The translations under genes and the position numbers were made by a program. This document shows positions 14,331 to 33,647 of a stretch of DNA of 39,463 nt, one piece after another (positions within the stretch are counted from its first letter, which is position 1; each line of letters starts with the position of its first letter). Source of the stretch: a virus (Duplodnaviria > Heunggongvirae > Uroviricota > Caudoviricetes). Under the pieces are notes generated by a model. That model had not been told where the DNA came from. It made no database searches and saw only the letters and a list, made by a program, of their open reading frames with translations. The stretch spans positions 1 through 39,463 of IMG/VR virus record IMGVR_UViG_2568526086_000005, one strand, 5' to 3'.

Positions 14331-14992
14331 ATATCTACGAAAGAATTGATGGCAGCAAATACCGAAATATTTGGGTAGTTGGCGATCTGCACGGATGCTA
14401 CACGAACCTGATGAACAAACTGGATACGATTGGATTCGACAACAAAAAAGACCTGCTTATCTCGGTGGGCGATTTGGTTGATCGTGGTGCAGAGAACGTT
14501 GAATGCCTGGAATTAATCACATTCCCCTGGTTCAGAGCTGTACGTGGAAACCATGAGCAAATGATGATTGATGGCTTATCAGAGCGTGGAAACGTTAATC
14601 ACTGGCTGCTTAATGGCGGTGTCTGGTTCTTCAATCTCGATTACGACAAAGAGATTCTGGCTAAAGCTCTTGCCCATAAAGCAGAAGAACTTCCGTTAAT
14701 CATCGAACTGGTGAGCAAAGGTAAAAAATATGTCATTTGCCACGCCGATTATCCTTGTGATGAATACGAGTTAGGAAAGCCAGTTGATCATCAGCAGGTA
14801 ATCTGGAACCGCGAACGAATCGGCAACTCACAAAACGGGATCGTGAAAGAAATCAAAGGCGCGGACACGTTCATCTTTGGTCATACGCCAGCAGTGAAAC
14901 CACTCAAATTTGCCAACCAGATGTATATCGATACCGGCGCAGTGTTCTGCGGAAACCTCACATTGATTCAGGTACAGGGAGAAGGCGCATGA
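14327..14992 (+). CDS. ninI: Ser/Thr protein phosphatase (lambda PPase-like, calcineurin-like metallophosphoesterase)
   Basis: 221 aa. Metallophosphatase motifs GDLHG, GDLVDRG, GNHE. Confidence 0.8.
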
Positions 14993-15612
14993 GACTCGAA
15001 AGCGTAGCTAAATTTCATTCGCCAAAAAGCCCGATGATGAGCGACTCACCACGGGCTACGGCTTCTGACTCTCTTTCCGGTACTGATGTGATGGCTGCTA
15101 TGGGGATGGCGCAATCACAAGCCGGATTCGGAATGGCTGCATTCTGCGGTAAGCATGAACTCAGCCAGAACGACAAACAAAAGGCTATCAACTATCTGAT
15201 GCAATTTGCACACAAGGTATCGGGGAAATACCGTGGTGTGGCAAAGCTTGAAGGAAATACTAAGGCAAAGGTACTGCAAGTGCTCGCAACATTCGCTTAT
15301 GCGGATTATTGCCGTAGTGCCGCGACGCCGGGCGCAAGATGCAGAGATTGCCACGGTACAGGCCGTGCGGTTGATATAGCCAAAACAGAGCAGTGGGGGA
15401 GAGTTGTTGAGAAAGAGTGCGGAAGATGCAAAGGAGTCGGCTATTCAAGAATGCCAGCAAGCGCCGCATATCGCGCTGTAACGATGCTAATCCCAAACCT
15501 TACTCAACCCACCTGGTCACGCACTGTTAAGCCGCTGTATGACGCTCTGGTGGTGCAATGCCACAAAGAAGAGTCAATCGCAGACAACATTTTGAATGCG
15601 GTCACACGTTAG
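14989..15612 (+). CDS. Q: Late-gene antiterminator Q (lambda type)
   Basis: 207 aa. [28 protein letters not shown]... is near-identical to lambda Q as I remember it. pR' lies just downstream. Confidence 0.85.
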
Positions 15613-15654: not shown

Positions 15655-15683
15655 TTGACTTTTTGAATAAAGTTGGGTAAATT
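15655..15683 (+). promoter_or_regulatory. Late promoter pR' (-35 TTGACT, 17-nt spacer, -10 TAAATT), presumptive qut region
   Basis: The sequence ttgactttttgaataaagttgggtaaatttgactcaacgatgg closely resembles the lambda pR' region. Confidence 0.6.
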
Positions 15684-15719
15684 TGACTCAACGATGGATA
15701 AATGCACTCGTTAAATAAA

Positions 15720-15750
15720 GCCCTGAGTTAATAGCTCGGGGCTTTTTGCG
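15720..15750 (+). terminator. Intrinsic terminator about 30-60 nt downstream of the pR' start (tR'-like)
   Basis: GCCCTGAG-(7 nt loop)-CTCGGGGC (one G-U pair) followed by TTTTTGCGTTTT. Confidence 0.5.
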
Positions 15751-15974: not shown

Positions 15975-16298
15975 ATGAAGATGCCAGAAAAACATGACCT
16001 GTTAGCCGCCATTCTCGCGGCAAAGGAACAAGGCATCGGGGCAATCCTTGCGTTTGCAATGGCGTACCTTCGCGGCAGATATAATGGCGGTGCGTTTACA
16101 AAAACAGTAATCGACGCAACGATGTGCGCCATTATCGCCTGGTTCATTCGTGACCTTCTCGACTTCGCCGGACTAAGTAGCAATCTCGCTTATATAACGA
16201 GCGTGTTCATCGGCTACATCGGTACTGACTCGATTGGTTCGCTTATCAAACGCTTCGCTGCTAAAAAAGCCGGAATAGAAGATGGTGGAAATCAATAA
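15975..16298 (+). CDS. S: Holin S (class I, dual-start motif)
   Basis: [30 protein letters not shown]... matches lambda S. Met1-Lys2-Met3 dual start (second ATG at 15981). Confidence 0.9.
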
Positions 16299-16758
16299 TC
16301 AACGTAAGGCGTTCCTCGATATGCTGGCGTGGTCGGAGGGAACTGATAACGGACGGCAGAAAACCAGAAATCATGGTTATGACGTCATTGTTGGCGGAGA
16401 GCTATTCACTGATTACTCCGATCACCCTCGCAAACTTGTCACGCTAAACCCCAAACTCAAATCAACAGCCGCCGGACGCTACCAGCTTCTTTCCCGTTGG
16501 TGGGATGCCTATCGTAAGCAGCTTGGCCTGAAAGACTTCTCTCCGAAAAGCCAGGACGCTGTGGCACTGCAACAGATTAAAGAGCGTGGCGCTTTACCGA
16601 TGATTGACCACGGTGATATTCGTCAGGCAATCGACCGTTGCAGCAATATCTGGGCTTCACTGCCGGGGGCTGGTTATGGTCAGTTCGAGCATAAGGCTGA
16701 CAGCCTGATTGCAAAATTCAAAGAAGCTGGCGGAACGGTCAGAGAGATTGAGGTATGA
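16282..16758 (+). CDS. R: Endolysin R (lambda-type lytic transglycosylase)
   Basis: 158 aa. [26 protein letters not shown]... matches lambda R. Confidence 0.9.
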
Positions 16759-17222
16759 GCAGAGTAACCGCGATTATCTCAGCTCTGGTTATCTGCATCA
16801 TCGTTTGCCTGTCATGGGCTGTTAATCATTACCGTGATAACGCCATCGCCTACAAAGAGCAGCGCGATAACAAGGCCAGTGAACTGGAGAAGGTGAACGC
16901 CACCATTACTGACATGCAGCAGCGCCAGCGTGATGCTGATGCACTCGATGCTAAATACACAAAGGAGTTAGCGGATGCGAAAGCTGAAAATGATGCTCTT
17001 CGGCGCAAGCTTGATAATGGTGGTCGGGTGCTCGTCAAAGGAAAATGCCCTGTGCCAGCCTCAGCCAAAACCTCCAGCGCCTCCGGCATGGGCAATGATG
17101 CCACCGTCGAACTCTCTGCAGTTGCTGGACGAAACGTTCTCGGTATCCGGTCCGGAATCCTCAGCGACCAAACAGCCCTGAGAGCCCTGCAGGAATACAT
17201 CACCACGCAGTGCCTGAAATAA
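16755..17222 (+). CDS. Rz: Spanin inner-membrane subunit Rz
   Basis: 155 aa, N-terminal transmembrane helix ([16 protein letters not shown]), coiled-coil periplasmic domain. Matches lambda Rz. Confidence 0.85.
16975..17181 (+). CDS. Rz1: Spanin outer-membrane lipoprotein Rz1 (embedded in the +1 frame of Rz)
   Basis: ATG at 16975 preceded by AAAGGAG. Signal peptide with lipobox (..LIMVVGC) and a Pro-rich mature part ([11 protein letters not shown]). Confidence 0.7.
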
Positions 17223-17223
17223 C

Positions 17224-17250
17224 AGCCTCGCAATAGCGGGGCTTTTTAAT
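17224..17250 (+). terminator. Candidate intrinsic terminator after the lysis cassette
   Basis: CCTCGC-AATA-GCGGGG (one G-U pair) followed by CTTTTTAAT. Confidence 0.4.
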
Positions 17251-17373
17251 GCGTATCGTACACGCAAACCATCGAGAGTCTTTCAGTCGTGAGCCTGAGG
17301 AACGCCGTTAAAGGTGGCGACCTCTCTCGGGCGGCGTTCCTGTACGACAGGCTCACACCTAAAGGAAAACAGC

Positions 17374-17586
17374 ATGAAAAAATCAGTAGACAGCACAATC
17401 CCCCGGTCTGGCTATATTCGTCGCTTTCGCATGCCGGAATTACTGGGCGTTTCCATGCCTACTATTGATCGCTGGGTGAAAAACGGCACATTGCCACGCC
17501 CGGTAAAACTCACCAATAACGTGACCGTCTTTGATGCGGTAGAGATTAACAACTGGCTGGCAGAGCGTCGGGGAAAGGCGGCGTAA
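17374..17586 (+). CDS. AlpA-family phage transcriptional regulator (small HTH protein)
   Basis: 70 aa from ATG 17374 (RBS AAAGGAAAA). RMPELLGVSMPTIDRWVKNGTLPRPVKL...EINNWLAERR fits the AlpA pattern (R-x-PEx..G.S..TI..W......P.P.K). Confidence 0.6.
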   Translation: MKKSVDSTIPRSGYIRRFRMPELLGVSMPTIDRWVKNGTLPRPVKLTNNVTVFDAVEINNWLAERRGKAA

Positions 17587-17751
17587 TGGAATAGTGGAAC
17601 TGAAGAGTTCATTAAGGACTGATAGGGCATTACAGAGCCACTTCAAGAGGTGGCTCGATAATGTCACTAAGAGGAAAAATTCATGGCAAAACCGGACTGT
17701 GATTTCGTCGAATAAGAATGGTGACCATAAAACAGAGTCACCACAGATTAT

Positions 17752-18000
17752 TTACCCGCGCGCTTCGCGACCAGGCTCATCTTCATTAACGCGATAACGC
17801 CAATATCGTTCAGGCTTAACCCAAACCACTTTATCACCGCTTACTTTGCGGAATTGGGTAATGACAGGTGTAGATAAAACAAGATTACCATCAGCATTTT
17901 CTTTCAGAAACTGCTCATTATCGAGTTTGACTAAATAATCAACTACGTCTTCCTGATACAGGCAACCGTCATATTCTAACTGAGCCATCATCCACTTCAT
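17752..18000 (-). CDS. Hypothetical protein (start uncertain; track ORF extends to 18117 and would overlap the upstream gene)
   Basis: In-frame ATGs at 18000 and 17991, neither with a strong RBS. Convergent with the AlpA-like gene. Confidence 0.3.
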   Translation of the reverse strand: MKWMMAQLEYDGCLYQEDVVDYLVKLDNEQFLKENADGNLVLSTPVITQFRKVSGDKVVWVKPERYWRYRVNEDEPGREARG

Positions 18001-18035
18001 CACGTCTGTAAGAGACAACTTGAGTGCGTTTGGGT

Positions 18036-18245
18036 TTACGGCTTTGGGTTGGTAGCAGTCAGTGATTCTTCTGGAAATCTGGCTCTTTCTTGCTTCCTTC
18101 CTGAAAACCACTGACACCAGTAATCACCAACAAAAACATCAAAGCTGTTTATGATTGGCTCCTGAACAGCCATCGCCGGGCCGCCTGAAACCAAATAAAC
18201 AATGTCGCCGATTTTAAATTTAGGGGTACGTGGATTTTTTGACAT
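18036..18245 (-). CDS. Small DUF2158/YodC-like protein
   Basis: 69 aa, ATG at 18245 preceded by AAGGAA at 6 nt. MSKNPRTPKFKIGDIVYLVSGGPAMAV... has the KxGDxVxLxSGGP pattern of that small-protein family as I remember it. Confidence 0.5.
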   Translation of the reverse strand: MSKNPRTPKFKIGDIVYLVSGGPAMAVQEPIINSFDVFVGDYWCQWFSGRKQERARFPEESLTATNPKP

Positions 18246-18272
18246 AAAGCTTCCTTTTTAAGAGAGAGATAC

Positions 18273-18824
18273 ATGGCACTCACCGACAAACAAGAAATGT
18301 TCTGTCGCGAGTACCTCATCGATTTAAACGCCACGCAAGCGGCTATTCGGGCGGGGTACAGCGCAAAGACAGCTAACCGTACCGCATCCGAAAACCTGTC
18401 AAAACCTGACATCAAGTTAAGAATCGCCGAACTGAAAGCGCAACGCAATGATCTTGTTGGTATTAATGCAGAATATGTACTTAATCGCCTTATTGAAATC
18501 GACCAGATGGATGTGCTTGACATTCTCCTGCAAAACGGTGAGCTAAAACCCATCAAAGACTGGCCTAAGGTATGGCGCACAACGCTATCAGGAATGGATG
18601 TCGTGGAGATGGTATCCGCAGATAGCGCCGCACTTCTGAAGAAAATCAAATGGCCTGATAAGGTTAAAAATCTTGAATTGCTTGGGCGTCATGTTTCTGT
18701 TCAGGCGTTTAAAGACAACGTCAAAAATGAAGTTACTGGCGCTGATGGAGGACCAGTCAGAACAGAAATTACCAACTTAACGCCGGAGCAGGCTGCAGAG
18801 GCGTATAGAAAAATGATGGGCTAA
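18273..18824 (+). CDS. Terminase small subunit
   Basis: 183 aa. N-terminus [30 protein letters not shown] is the typical small-terminase helix-turn-helix opening. Immediately upstream of the large subunit. Confidence 0.8.
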
Positions 18825-32313: not shown

Positions 32314-32616
32314 ATGGCTGTTTCAGAAATCCCTCTATCACCAGAAAACCAGCGATTCTCCATATCTGTTGCAGGTCAAAGCCTGCAAATGGCTGTCACC
32401 TGGCGTGCTGCTTTCTGGTGTCTGGATATTATGGACAGTACCGGGGCCGACCTGATAAAGGGGATCCCGCTTATCACCGGCGCCAACCTGCTGGCTCAGT
32501 ATCGCTATCTCGGGCTTGGCTTTTCGCTCTATGTCAATTGCGACGACCCAGCAAATGATAATCCAACCCAAACCGACCTCGGCATTAAAAGCCATCTCTA
32601 CGCAGTAACGGAGTGA
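32314..32616 (+). CDS. Tail/baseplate protein (hypothetical)
   Basis: 100 aa, immediately follows the previous gene. Confidence 0.45.
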   Translation: MAVSEIPLSPENQRFSISVAGQSLQMAVTWRAAFWCLDIMDSTGADLIKGIPLITGANLLAQYRYLGLGFSLYVNCDDPANDNPTQTDLGIKSHLYAVTE

Positions 32617-32618
32617 TT

Positions 32619-33647
32619 ATGTCTCAGAACTGGATGCGGCACTTTGAGCTGCAGCTTATTGACGACAAGGGTGATGGTGTTTCGCTGTCGGATTTTAAGG
32701 TGACGTTTAATATCCAGAAGATGCCCGCGACTATCTTTAACGGATTCGTGGGTAACTTCAAAATCTACAATCTGTCGCCGGAGACACAAAACCGGATCAT
32801 GGGTAAAGAGTTTACTCGTGTAAGGGCTATTGCCGGGTATAACGGCACAGCAGACAGCAGTGGTAACTATCCTGATAAAAATGTGGGGATCATCTTTAAC
32901 GGTGATATTCGCTTTACCGTTACCGGAAAAGATAACGTCACCGATAGTTGGGTGCTCATCCAGTGTATTGATGGCTGGGAGGGGCATCTCAACGCCAGCG
33001 TGAAAACGACAGTATCGGCAGGCTGGAAGCATGCTGACCTGTTTGATTTGGGTATGCAGTCCCTTAGCCATTATGGCATTACAGAGGGAAGCAGGCCGGA
33101 TTTTGGTCCAACTGTATTCCCCCGCGGCCGCACTATTTATCAGAACACTGGACGCCTGATGTACAGCCTTGCAGGGCAATGTAAGGCTAATTGGTGGTAC
33201 GAAAACAACCAGGTGCATATTGTTCCTGATGATAAGTACATACAGGAAGCGATTGTACTGAACGCCAATACGGGCCTGATCGGTATGCCTCAGCAGACGA
33301 TGGGCGCCGGGGTAAATGTGCGCTGTCTGATAAACCCGAATATTAAGCTTGGTGGGCTTATCAGGCTGGATCAGGCCTCTGTATATCGTCAGGCTCTCGG
33401 TAATGACCAGGTTGGCCAGTCACCAGGTATCTTAGGCGAAAGTACCACAGACGGTAACATCTATGTCGATGGGCTTCCCGGGTCGCAGCTGGCGGCAATC
33501 AATACCGATGGTGATTACATTGTCGGCAGCATTGACTATACTGGCGATACTCGCGGGCAGGCGTGGTATATGGACCTGCTGTGTCTGGCGAAAGGGGCTC
33601 GGGATTTGCTCAACTCAAAAGGTTTGGATGCGGCGCAATACTCATGA
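32619..33647 (+). CDS. Baseplate hub-like protein
   Basis: ATG at 32619 (GGAG RBS; the track ORF starts at GTG 32613). About 342 aa, in the tail module after the tape measure. Confidence 0.5.
   Translation: MSQNWMRHFELQLIDDKGDGVSLSDFKVTFNIQKMPATIFNGFVGNFKIYNLSPETQNRIMGKEFTRVRAIAGYNGTADSSGNYPDKNVGIIFNGDIRFTVTGKDNVTDSWVLIQCIDGWEGHLNASVKTTVSAGWKHADLFDLGMQSLSHYGITEGSRPDFGPTVFPRGRTIYQNTGRLMYSLAGQCKANWWYENNQVHIVPDDKYIQEAIVLNANTGLIGMPQQTMGAGVNVRCLINPNIKLGGLIRLDQASVYRQALGNDQVGQSPGILGESTTDGNIYVDGLPGSQLAAINTDGDYIVGSIDYTGDTRGQAWYMDLLCLAKGARDLLNSKGLDAAQYS

What the first reader, a model, noticed from the sequence alone, without database searches (positions are those of the whole stretch)
17224..18262. 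Accessory locus between the lysis cassette and terminase: AlpA-like regulator facing two minus-strand genes
In lambda this slot holds bor. Here it holds an AlpA-family HTH regulator (plus strand) and, converging on it, a DUF2158/YodC-like small protein and an unassigned ORF. AlpA-type proteins usually control excision or satellite elements, so finding one inside the late region is unexpected. The locus is outside the normal late-operon logic (opposite strand) and may be a separately regulated module.
Basis: partly seen in the sequence, partly recalled or inferred. Interest (0 to 1): 0.5.

Follow-up and report, generated by a model that had tools for sequence, protein, structure and literature searches.

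The report
Satellite on-switch gene inside a prophage
Between its lysis and DNA-packaging genes, this E. coli prophage carries an intact copy of AlpA, the on-switch gene of phage-parasitic islands (PICIs), so the phage may itself trigger or tamper with its parasites; the two neighbouring reverse-strand genes are an unrelated, conserved pair of unknown function.

Summary
Between Rz (ends 17222) and terS (starts 18273) lie three real genes: an AlpA-family gene (17374-17586, +), a DUF6953 gene (17752-18000/18018, -) and a DUF2158/YodC gene (18036-18245, -).

They are not one module. The identical AlpA occurs without the minus-strand pair in other prophage backbones. The pair occurs without AlpA in E. 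coli, Klebsiella-like and Burkholderia prophages.

The AlpA gene belongs to the clade of int-proximal alpA genes of ~12.5-kb phage-inducible chromosomal islands (PICIs). Its HTH/wing core is 97% nucleotide-identical to the alpA of an E. coli yicC-site PICI. All 68 other enterobacterial relatives sampled systematically, but one uninformative short contig, sit in PICI context.

The coding sequence is fused to a phage leader, RBS and first codons inside the Q-dependent late operon. A second phage-borne allele, in Klebsiella prophages, has the same ends but the core of the Klebsiella PICI alpA.

Published work shows PICI or PICMI AlpA expressed in trans is enough to induce the satellite. The phage signal that normally turns alpA on is unknown.

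Best reading (inferred, untested): a captured satellite master switch, expressed late, that acts on matching resident PICIs. It is rare and not reported in the literature searched.

The parts
17224..17250 (+). Intrinsic-terminator-like hairpin plus T-run directly after the Rz stop codon. It would stop transcripts not modified by the Q antiterminator before they reach alpA.
   Evidence: 8-bp stem with 6 G-C pairs at 17224-17243, followed by TTTTTAAT; this hairpin appears in the minimum-free-energy fold.
17251..17373 (+). Phage 'cargo leader'. It contains a long hairpin (about 17288-17357) and the ribosome-binding site AAAGGAA (17361-17367). The same leader precedes different cargo genes in related prophages.
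   Evidence: folding energy -63.9 kcal/mol, z-score -4.85, 0 of 200 shuffles fold as well; 100% identical in prophage L006, where a 194-aa hypothetical gene starts at the same ATG; 99% identical in all phage-borne alpA copies and 20-31% to PICI sequences.
17374..17586 (+). alpA, 70 aa: a phage-borne copy of the PICI int-proximal AlpA (winged-HTH regulator / excision factor family). It is a chimera: codons 1-7 are phage-specific, codons 8-14 are Klebsiella-PICI-like, the core is E. coli-PICI-like, and the 3' end is shared with phage allele 2.
17416..17528 (+). HTH + wing 'specificity core' of alpA. It has been exchanged between phage-borne alleles by recombination with resident PICI alpA genes.
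   Evidence: 110/113 nt (97%) identical to E. coli yicC PICI L005, but 64% to phage allele 2 (L018). The L018 core is 89% identical to Klebsiella PICI L026.
17586..17594 (+). ATGGAATAG, overlapping the alpA stop (TAATG). It looks like a remnant of the start of the PICI gene (144-145 aa) that is translationally coupled to alpA. This points to capture in the PICI-to-phage direction.
   Evidence: alignment: PICI L022 reads GTAATGGAAAAGAAAAACCG at the same place. Only a short match, so suggestive only.
17626..17665 (+). Conserved 'trailer' hairpin downstream of the cargo gene. It has no T-run, so it is not a terminator on the + strand. It forms the right-hand conserved flank of the cargo slot.
   Evidence: fold; 94-96% identical in all phage-borne alpA copies and also present in Klebsiella phage ST15-VIM1phi2.1, which lacks alpA.
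17720..17742 (.). GGTGAC-N11-GTCACC hairpin between the convergent genes. It is the likely transcript end of the minus-strand pair.
   Evidence: Its function as a terminator is inferred.
17752..18018 (-). DUF6953 gene: 82 aa from the ATG at 18000, or 88 aa from the TTG at 18018. Predicted small winged-helix protein. Second gene of the DUF2158-DUF6953 cassette.
18036..18245 (-). DUF2158/YodC-family gene, 69 aa. Predicted SH3/KOW-like beta-barrel. First gene of the cassette, divergent from terS with only 27 nt between the start codons.
15655..15745 (+). Context: late promoter-like site (pR'-like, 15655-15683) and strong terminator (tR'-like, 15717-15745) downstream of Q. This is the only recognisable driver of + strand transcription through lysis genes, alpA and terS.
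   Evidence: Q (14989-15612) scores 192 bits on Pfam Antiterm.

Best explanation
The locus holds two independent cargo units in the variable slot between the lysis and packaging modules of a lambdoid-early, myovirus-late E. coli prophage.

Unit 1 is alpA, a gene captured from a phage-inducible chromosomal island (PICI). Only the coding sequence from about codon 8 was taken. It is fused in frame to the slot's resident leader, RBS and start codon. It therefore no longer carries the PICI's own promoter or its RBS-occluding 5' hairpin.

alpA lies between Rz and terS on the late strand, behind an intrinsic terminator and without a recognisable promoter. I infer that it is made only from the Q-antiterminated late transcript.

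The protein keeps every invariant residue of the PICI AlpA clade. I therefore infer that it binds the same targets as the AlpA of matching PICIs (the yicC/der-site ~12.5-kb islands). In trans, it would switch on their excision-replication-packaging programme, either through the AlpA auto-activation loop or as an excision directionality factor. This would couple satellite induction directly to late gene expression of this phage.

The DNA-recognition core has been swapped by recombination with resident PICIs, giving an E. coli-type core in E. coli prophages and a Klebsiella-type core in Klebsiella prophages. Who benefits is unresolved. The phage might gain by mobilising useful satellites, or the satellite might have planted its switch in a helper.

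Unit 2 is DUF2158 followed by DUF6953: a separate, widely conserved two-gene cassette of unknown function, with a predicted SH3/KOW-like barrel and a small winged helix. It is transcribed against the late operon and is probably expressed in the lysogen.

Shown here: gene identities, provenance, mosaic structure, independence of the two units, rarity. Inferred: late-only expression, action on PICIs, any fitness effect.
For: Provenance from PICIs:
- Window 17410-17591 is 93% nt identical to the alpA of an E. coli island at yicC. That island reads int-hyp-alpA-144 aa-AntA/B-Icd-...-primase(DUF927)-SSB-PerC. The proteins are 86% identical, and identical over residues 13-51.
- Every other homologue whose context was examined is int-proximal in such an island: P0016, P0042, P0002; 20 of 21 enterobacterial GTDB species-representative loci, the other being an uninformative short contig; and 47 of 47 IMG/VR loci.
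- L024 and L025 are circularly permuted 12,495-bp contigs of one such island.

Fusion and capture:
- Leader and ATG are 100% identical to a prophage with a different cargo gene.
- A TAATGGAA remnant of the PICI downstream gene follows the stop codon.

Selection and spread:
- The exact protein is found on 14 contigs, always between a spanin gene and terS. These span at least 3 backbones with different Q, lysis and terminase types.
- Allele 2 sits in the same slot on 6 contigs in further backbones, which are Klebsiella prophage-like.
- Within alleles there are 7 synonymous and 0 nonsynonymous differences among the copies read.
- All invariant columns of the clade alignment are retained.
- Segment identities show core swapping.

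Expression logic: pR'/tR' lie at 15655-15745, a terminator at 17224-17243, and no promoter-like site precedes alpA.

Function of AlpA in satellites:
- AlpA is an auto-activating master activator. Over-expression alone causes excision and replication of EcCICFT073. The helper signal is unidentified (PMC6092414).
- alpA is required, helper-induced and auto-activating in EcCIMP1 (PMC11773190).
- alpA in trans is sufficient for PICMI excision and was used to cure the element (PMC10803314).

A phage-satellite relationship with this phage lineage:
- A PICI of the same alpA clade carries a baseplate-hub homologue 51% identical to window 32613-33647.
- It also carries a TerS-like DUF2280 protein whose C-terminal tail is 48% identical to the window TerS tail.
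- Another PICI-type contig carries an Rz'-cargo-DUF6953-DUF2158-terS' segment.

Not the phage's own excision factor: Int (1-1260) and a DUF1233 excisionase (1303-1548, 118 bits) sit together at the other end of the window.
Against: - No experiment exists on this AlpA allele. The tested EcCICFT073 AlpA is only 27% identical to the window protein, so function is transferred by family and by conserved gene position, not by near-identity.
- AlpA operators are unknown. My motif search found no convincing shared site and cannot show a target in either the PICI or the phage.
- The configuration is rare. It is absent from 5,426 complete E. coli genomes and from 50,697 phage records. Allele 1 copies are almost all nucleotide-identical. 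This fits a recent, possibly transient event.
- Core swapping could be neutral gene conversion from whatever PICI is resident, rather than selected specificity matching.
- Late-only expression would leave little time for a satellite to replicate, so a benefit to either party is unclear.
- I could not show that genomes with the phage-borne allele also carry a matching PICI.
- Late-only expression is an inference from consensus scans; weak promoters would be missed.
Confidence: 0.5

Rival explanations
1. Neutral hitch-hiker. The gene is a by-product of recombination between a helper phage and a co-replicating PICI. It happens to be in frame in a permissive cargo slot and has no role for either partner.
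For: - Rarity: 0 of 5,426 complete E. coli genomes, 0 of 50,697 phage records, and 0 of 68 systematically sampled enterobacterial relatives.
- 10 of 11 allele-1 copies are nucleotide-identical, i.e. recent.
- Phage-PICI exchange around this junction demonstrably occurs in both directions.
Against: - The ORF is intact in all 20 contigs read.
- It is present in at least 5 distinct backbones in two host genera.
- There are two alleles with conserved ends and swapped cores.
- All 7 within-allele differences are synonymous.
- All invariant clade residues are retained.
Confidence: 0.2
2. Anti-satellite device. The phage makes AlpA to disturb its parasite. It could induce the PICI at the wrong time (too late to replicate or interfere), force excision and loss, or occupy AlpA operators without activating them.
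For: - AlpA in trans causes uncontrolled, host-damaging PICI replication (PMC6092414).
- AlpA in trans was used to cure a PICMI (PMC10803314).
- The phage copy is cut loose from the PICI's own control region.
- Its N-terminal 12 residues differ from those of PICI AlpAs.
Against: - The N-terminus is the hypervariable part of the whole clade, and all conserved residues are kept, so nothing suggests a dominant-negative protein.
- Late expression occurs in a cell already committed to lysis, where curing has no obvious value.
- There is no evidence of expression in the lysogen.
Confidence: 0.12
3. Regulator of phage or host genes. AlpA acts on promoters in the phage itself (for example the neighbouring minus-strand pair or the packaging genes) or in the host chromosome, as a conventional moron-type regulator.
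For: - Regulators such as Rha occupy the same slot in a sister prophage.
- AlpA-family proteins can be transcription factors (PMC6092414).
- There are weak sequence matches of the HTH to small-terminase N-terminal domains.
Against: - AlpA occurs with at least 4 different terS/terL types, and with or without the minus-strand pair, so no constant phage target travels with it.
- The conserved flanks are the same for unrelated cargo genes, so they are not AlpA-specific sites.
- Apart from alpA, the window shares no sequence with the closest PICIs L005, L007, L026 and L029; it matches L022/L024 only in the late-gene region 32613-33584.
Confidence: 0.08
4. Excision factor of the prophage itself, or a spare one.
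For: The family includes excisionases such as P4 Vis, TorI and the Kapi1 Xis-like AlpA_1 (PMC11773190). PHROG and NCBIfam give weak excisionase hits.
Against: - The prophage has its own Int plus a DUF1233 excisionase side by side, about 16 kb away.
- Its integrase is of a different type (Arm-DNA-bind_2) from the PICI integrases (Arm-DNA-bind_3).
- Late expression is too late for prophage excision.
Confidence: 0.03

Closest known systems
AlpA of Gram-negative PICIs (EcCICFT073, EcCIMP1, cf-PICI EcCIEDL933): the int-proximal master activator
   Same: Same Pfam family. The window protein is 86% identical to the AlpA of a PICI with the canonical int-alpA-...-primase layout. The expected biochemical activity is therefore the same.
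   Different: - It is encoded by the (potential) helper prophage, in the late operon, not next to an integrase in a satellite.
- It lacks the PICI promoter and 5' hairpin.
- It is only 27% identical to the one allele studied in most detail, EcCICFT073.
Phage-encoded inducers of satellites (own knowledge: SaPI derepressors such as dUTPase and Sri that bind the Stl repressor; P2 Cox and Ogr acting on P4)
   Same: It would work like them: a helper-encoded protein whose production switches the satellite on.
   Different: Those inducers are ordinary phage proteins that the satellite has evolved to sense. Here the phage carries the satellite's own activator gene, a homologue rather than an unrelated ligand. 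No experiment supports the activity yet.
Helper-embedded PICIs (Mageeney et al. 2023, PMC10111431)
   Same: PICI-derived DNA inside the late region of a lambdoid prophage, co-oriented with the late genes.
   Different: HE-PICIs are whole satellites (int, alpA, primase, att sites) integrated in a late gene. Here only a 0.2-kb coding sequence is present, with no int, primase or att.
AlpA of CP4-57, Vis of P4, and AlpA of PICMI (excision directionality factors)
   Same: Same fold family. In-trans expression triggers excision of an integrated element (PMC10803314).
   Different: Those genes act on the element that encodes them. This one has no cognate integrase in the phage.
Lambda bor / moron slot between Rz and the packaging genes
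   Same: Same genomic position. The cargo varies between sister prophages: Rha, a 194-aa hypothetical protein, a PLD-like nuclease, the DUF2158-DUF6953 pair. The minus-strand orientation of the DUF pair resembles bor.
   Different: alpA is on the late strand without its own promoter-like site. The cargo is a satellite regulator, not a host-fitness factor.

Membership tests
Pfam Phage_AlpA (PF05930) / HTH_17 winged-HTH family | Score above the curated gathering threshold | tested here: met
   27.8 bits against a cut-off of 21; HTH_17 27.2 against 27. The best PDB sequence match is 8c3t, 'AlpA family phage regulatory protein', E 0.0036.
PICI-type AlpA clade (int-proximal alpA of enterobacterial PICIs) | Close sequence relationship to alpA genes that sit next to int in int-alpA-primase islands | tested here: met
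   86% aa and 93% nt identity to L005; core 97%. 81 homologue clusters; all invariant columns retained.
PICI-type AlpA clade (int-proximal alpA of enterobacterial PICIs) | Encoded in a satellite: downstream of a tyrosine integrase, upstream of a primase, with no phage structural or lysis genes in the element | tested here: not met
   The window gene lies between Rz and terS of a complete prophage. In contrast, 67 of 68 systematically sampled enterobacterial relatives are in PICI context; the remaining one is an uninformative short contig. It is therefore a phage-borne copy, not a PICI gene in situ.
PICI-type AlpA clade (int-proximal alpA of enterobacterial PICIs) | Activates its own promoter and induces excision and replication of the island | not testable with these tools
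   Known only from experiments on other alleles (PMC6092414, PMC11773190). The operator is unknown and the motif search was inconclusive.
Helper-embedded PICI (HE-PICI) | A whole satellite (int, alpA, primase, att repeats) inserted in a prophage late gene | tested here: not met
   Only alpA is shared with the closest PICIs (L005, L007, L026, L029). L022/L024 share in addition a segment of the tail/baseplate region (window 32613-33584), not int or primase. No int or primase lies near the locus.
Prophage excisionase (recombination directionality factor of this phage) | Adjacent to, and cognate with, the phage integrase | tested here: not met
   Int is at 1-1260 and a DUF1233 excisionase at 1303-1548 (118 bits), 16 kb from alpA.
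Moron (autonomous cargo unit in a late region) | Variable presence at a fixed junction between conserved phage modules | tested here: met
   Sister prophages carry Rha, a 194-198-aa hypothetical protein, small ORFs or a PLD-like gene in the same slot, with the same leader and trailer.
Moron (autonomous cargo unit in a late region) | Own promoter and terminator; expression from the repressed prophage | tested here: inconclusive
   For alpA: a terminator lies upstream, and no promoter-like site or + strand terminator lies downstream. For the minus-strand pair: there is a hairpin after DUF6953, but its promoter would lie inside terS and was not detected. Transcript data are needed.
Pfam DUF6953 and DUF2158 (YodC family) | Score above gathering thresholds | tested here: met
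   82.3 bits (cut-off 27) and 49.9 bits (cut-off 22.3).
Known anti-phage defence systems or toxin-antitoxin pairs (for the DUF2158-DUF6953 pair) | Match to a PADLOC model or to a known toxin/antitoxin domain | tested here: not met
   No PADLOC hit for either protein, no informative NCBIfam hit, and only generic winged-helix and SH3/KOW fold matches.

The most novel reading that the evidence does not exclude
Some temperate phages carry the master switch of their own satellites. A helper-type prophage expresses a captured PICI AlpA from its late operon, and the DNA-recognition core is kept matched (by recombination) to the PICI type resident in its host genus. The phage itself then decides whether and when the satellite is induced. 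This would be a previously undescribed layer of phage-satellite interplay: either co-operation, or a satellite gene planted in the helper. It would also be the first concrete molecular route from helper to alpA-dependent induction in Gram-negative PICIs.
Probability: 0.4. Interest if true: 0.8.

Novelty: new variant of a known kind. Interest (0 to 1): 0.62.

Why it matters
How helper phages switch on alpA, and hence Gram-negative PICIs and PICMIs, is an explicitly open question in the field (PMC6092414, PMC10803314). A phage that encodes the switch itself gives a simple, directly testable case:
- delete or express one 213-bp gene and measure satellite excision, replication and transfer;
- use the two natural alleles to test AlpA specificity.

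It also shows that gene flow between satellites and helpers runs both ways at the lysis-packaging junction. In addition, AlpA, used as a satellite signature in detection tools, can occasionally mark a prophage.

Separately, the DUF2158-DUF6953 pair is defined here as a conserved, uncharacterised two-gene prophage cassette worth testing.

Tried and rejected
- AlpA operator search. I compared the 460 nt upstream of alpA in seven PICIs. AATGG/CCATT repeats recur in some (L005, L007, L029) but not all (L022). The only clusters in the window lie inside coding regions with different flanks. Result: inconclusive, not used as evidence.
- Other PICI DNA in the window. blastn and tblastx of the window against six PICIs found only alpA, plus distant late-gene homologies to L022/L024. 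This rejects an HE-PICI or a larger PICI remnant.
- Co-occurrence of the phage-borne allele with a matching PICI in the same assembly. Sample identifiers from look-ups of PICI alleles P0007 and P0043 did not overlap those of the phage-borne copies. The tool cannot query an assembly, so this stays untested.
- Rfam on the whole window: no family reaches threshold, so the leader hairpin is not a known RNA.
- PADLOC and NCBIfam for the three proteins: nothing beyond a generic HTH similarity of AlpA to MADS MAD1.
- PDB sequence search for the DUF proteins: nothing. Fold searches gave only generic winged-helix and SH3/KOW matches, so no function is claimed.
- Literature. There is no paper on DUF6953, and only two passing mentions of DUF2158. 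No paper describes a phage-borne PICI-type AlpA.
- The 90-aa (GTG 17314) form of AlpA and the 121-aa (GTG 18117) form of the DUF6953 ORF were rejected on homologue lengths and start-site conservation.
- RNAalifold on the MAFFT alignment of PICI alpA leaders returned no structure because the alignment was poor. I replaced it with a per-sequence stem search with a shuffle control.
Full report
**Anatomy**

The window is a lambdoid-type prophage. Int (1-1260, -) and a DUF1233 excisionase (1303-1548, -) lie at the left end.

The late region reads as follows:
- Q antiterminator, 14989-15612.
- pR'-like promoter (15655-15683) and a strong tR'-like terminator (15717-15745).
- Holin, lysozyme and Rz/Rz1, 15975-17222.
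- The locus in question.
- terS (18273-18824, Terminase_2), terL, portal, head genes and myovirus-type baseplate genes.

The locus contains three genes with strong family support:
- alpA, 17374-17586 (+), 70 aa.
- A DUF6953 gene, 17752-18000/18018 (-).
- A DUF2158/YodC gene, 18036-18245 (-).

**The three genes are two independent units**

I looked up the exact 70-aa AlpA in public assemblies and found 14 contigs. In every one the gene lies between a spanin gene and terS. The backbones differ in Q family (three types), lysis cassette (two types) and terminase (Terminase_2 TerS + 540-aa TerL, or 246/347-aa TerS + Terminase_6N TerL).

Only the window-type backbone (L010, L011, L012, L015) has the two minus-strand genes. 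In the others terS follows alpA after 97 nt.

Conversely, an E. coli prophage that is 98.8% identical across DUF6953-DUF2158-terS has an Rha regulator where alpA is (L003).

DUF2158 followed by DUF6953 recurs as a pair in several places:
- In lambda-like E. coli prophages (L033-L037). There it is again between lysis and terminase genes and against the late strand.
- In Burkholderia prophages next to a kinase and a SocA/Panacea gene (L038-L040), with a 4-nt overlap between the two genes.
- In IMG/VR phages, divergent from the same terS family (L116, L117).

**The slot is a cassette site**

The 150 nt after Rz comprise a terminator at 17224-17243, a long hairpin at about 17288-17357 (z = -4.85) and the RBS. 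This stretch, up to the ATG at 17374, is 100% identical in prophages where a 194-198-aa hypothetical gene starts at that same ATG (L004, L006).

A trailer hairpin (17626-17665) is likewise shared with phages that carry other cargo. Cargo genes are therefore exchanged between constant flanks.

**What the AlpA is**

Against 5,426 complete E. coli genomes, the alpA part of the locus matches only islands at the yicC site. These read int - hypothetical - alpA - 144-aa ORF - AntA/Bro/ASH genes - Icd-like - primase (Zn-ribbon/Toprim/DUF927) - SSB - PerC. They span about 12 kb and have no structural or lysis genes. That is the Gram-negative PICI layout described by Fillol-Salom et al. (PMC6092414) and Mageeney et al. 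(PMC10111431).

- The best match (L005) is 93% nt identical over 17410-17591 and 86% aa identical. Residues 13-51 are identical.
- A search of 5.8 billion protein clusters returns only 81 clusters, all enterobacterial-type.
- The three I looked up (P0016, P0042, P0002) are int-proximal in such islands at yicC or der. For P0016 there are circularly permuted 12,495-bp contigs, consistent with an excised element.

Two systematic samples agree:
- 20 of 21 enterobacterial loci among GTDB species representatives are in PICI context, and the other is an uninformative short contig.
- 47 of 47 IMG/VR loci are in PICI context.
- None of these is phage-borne.

No deposited phage genome (50,697 records) has a homologue above 41% identity.

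**Mosaic structure of the gene**

A nucleotide alignment of phage-borne and PICI copies shows the following for the window gene:

| Segment | Coordinates | Closest relative |
|---|---|---|
| Leader + codons 1-7 | to 17394 | phage-specific: leader 99%, codons 1-7 95-100% among the phage copies aligned |
| Codons 8-14 | 17395-17415 | 90% to the Klebsiella PICI allele (L026) |
| HTH + wing core | 17416-17528 | 97% to E. coli PICI L005, only 64% to phage allele 2 |
| 3' end | 17529-17586 | 100% identical to phage allele 2 |

After the stop codon, TAATGGAA reproduces the translationally coupled start of the next PICI gene, as in L022.

Phage allele 2 (P0028, 79% aa identity) has the same N- and C-termini. 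Its codons 8-14 are 100% identical and its core 89% identical to the Klebsiella PICI alpA (P0042/L026). It sits in the same slot in yet other backbones, and these are 94% identical to Klebsiella pneumoniae prophages.

The simplest history has three steps:
1. A PICI alpA coding sequence was captured into the phage cargo slot.
2. It spread among prophages through the conserved flanks.
3. Its recognition core was later replaced by recombination with the PICI resident in the new host genus.

Within alleles all seven nucleotide differences are synonymous. All invariant residues of the clade are kept. This argues against a decaying remnant. One 90%-cluster representative (P0001) does carry an R16C change.

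**Mechanism: shown versus inferred**

Published experiments show three things:
- PICI AlpA activates its own promoter. Its over-expression, without any phage, induces excision and runaway replication of EcCICFT073. Helper phages raise alpA expression by an unidentified route (PMC6092414).
- EcCIMP1 behaves the same way with its helper Kapi1 (PMC11773190).
- In PICMIs, alpA in trans is sufficient for excision, probably as a directionality factor, and was used to cure the element (PMC10803314).

In PICIs the alpA start is preceded by a hairpin that abuts or includes the Shine-Dalgarno sequence. Of 49 distinct leaders, 46 form a stem of at least 7 bp there, against a mean of 6.4 (maximum 13) in shuffles. 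There are 35 distinct arm pairs, including compensatory variants. The phage-borne copies have lost this region.

I therefore infer the following:
- The phage makes a fully competent AlpA under late (Q-dependent) control. The reasons are that terS and all structural genes lie downstream on the same strand, no promoter-like site precedes alpA, and a terminator upstream blocks unmodified transcripts.
- This AlpA acts in trans on resident PICIs of the matching allele.

That this phage lineage meets such PICIs is supported by three observations:
- A PICI of the same alpA clade carries a baseplate-hub gene 51% identical to window 32613-33647 (E 7e-121).
- It also carries a DUF2280 TerS-like gene whose C-terminal 61 residues are 48% identical to the window TerS tail.
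- A PICI-type IMG/VR contig (L115) contains, after its primase, an inverted phage segment. This reads Rz' - 147-aa cargo - DUF6953 - DUF2158 - terS' (N-terminal 95 aa, 76% identical to the window TerS).

**Caveats**

- The experimentally studied EcCICFT073 AlpA is only 27% identical to the window protein.
- No operator is known, and my motif search was inconclusive.
- The configuration is rare and allele 1 copies are nearly all nucleotide-identical. A recent neutral capture, followed by neutral gene conversion, cannot be excluded.
- Induction only at late times gives a satellite little time, so the beneficiary is unclear.
- Co-residence with a matching PICI could not be checked.

**The minus-strand pair**

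There is no defence-system model, solved relative or literature for either.

Only 27 nt separate the DUF2158 and terS start codons, so the pair's promoter must lie inside terS. Late transcription runs antisense through the pair. I infer lysogen-phase expression, as for lambda bor (the bor comparison is my own knowledge), but the function is unknown.

**Comparison and novelty**

The gene is a member of the Phage_AlpA family and of the PICI alpA clade by sequence. It fails the positional definition of a PICI alpA, is not an HE-PICI, and is not the phage's own excisionase.

It would work like a helper-encoded satellite inducer. Unlike known inducers, it would be a copy of the satellite's own activator.

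Mageeney et al. noted one Phage_AlpA hit far from int among 169 model prophages, without follow-up. I found no description of phage-borne PICI-type AlpA.

I class it as a new variant of a known kind, of moderate-to-high interest, with a mechanism that is plausible but untested.

Noticed in passing
window 17251-17373 (hairpin about 17288-17357): A 124-nt leader with a very stable long hairpin (-63.9 kcal/mol for 17220-17390, z -4.85) precedes the cargo gene. It is conserved at 99-100% upstream of unrelated cargo genes in many E. coli and Klebsiella prophages. The fold partly pairs the Shine-Dalgarno region. There is no Rfam match. Its role (translation control, processing site, recombination flank) is unknown.
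   Followed up: partly
PICI loci L005, L007, L022, L026, L029, L041-L061, L068-L114: the 55 nt upstream of the alpA start: PICI alpA genes are preceded by a conserved hairpin that abuts or includes the Shine-Dalgarno sequence (e.g. CCCGUAAC-N16-GUUACGGG). Of 49 distinct leaders, 46 form a stem of at least 7 bp, against a mean of 6.4 in shuffles. Many arm variants are compensatory. This could be a post-transcriptional or operator gate on the satellite master switch. The phage-borne copies lack it.
   Followed up: partly
L115 6702-8656 (IMG/VR contig IMGVR_UViG_2630968924_000008): Downstream of its primase, a PICI-type element (der-type int, alpA, primase) carries an inverted copy of a phage lysis-packaging junction. 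It reads Rz' (62% id) - 147-aa ORF - DUF6953 - DUF2158 - truncated terS (N-terminal 95 aa, 76% id to the window TerS). This may be a captured pac region.
   Followed up: partly
L022 14832-15899 and L024 525-998, compared with window 32613-33647 and 18273-18824: A 12.5-kb PICI of the same alpA clade encodes a baseplate-hub (gp41-like) homologue 51% identical to the window's. It also encodes a DUF2280 TerS-like protein that shares only its C-terminal tail (48% over 61 aa) with the window TerS. This suggests the PICI exploits phages with this terminase and tail type.
   Followed up: partly
L024 and L025 (both 12,495 bp): Circularly permuted contigs of the same PICI were assembled from several sequencing runs (9 further similar places not shown). 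This is consistent with excised or replicating circular or concatemeric forms in those samples.
   Followed up: no
L019 2638-3249 (-): In one allele-2 prophage, the position of the DUF pair is taken by a minus-strand 203-aa gene. It has weak PLD/NgoFVII-like nuclease domain hits (E about 3e-4, below the gathering score). It may be a defence-type cargo in the same slot.
   Followed up: no
proteins P0110, P0131, P0156, P0173, P0193: Several database records name 78-88-aa DUF6953 proteins 'ATP-dependent RNA helicase HrpA' or 'RNA helicase'. This is very likely an annotation artefact for a small stand-alone protein.
   Followed up: no
window 18246-18272: Only 27 nt separate the divergent start codons of DUF2158 and terS. 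This arrangement is kept in distant phages (L116, L117) and in the PICI-borne copy (L115). Each gene's promoter and 5' UTR must therefore overlap the other gene's coding sequence. The tight linkage hints at a functional tie between the pair and terS or pac.
   Followed up: no
L045 (contig CACSKA010000004.1, labelled Chryseobacterium sp. 18061): A yicC-type enterobacterial PICI (int 88% and primase 85% identical to the E. coli PICI L005) sits on a 430-kb contig of an assembly labelled Chryseobacterium. The assembly is probably mislabelled or contaminated.
   Followed up: no
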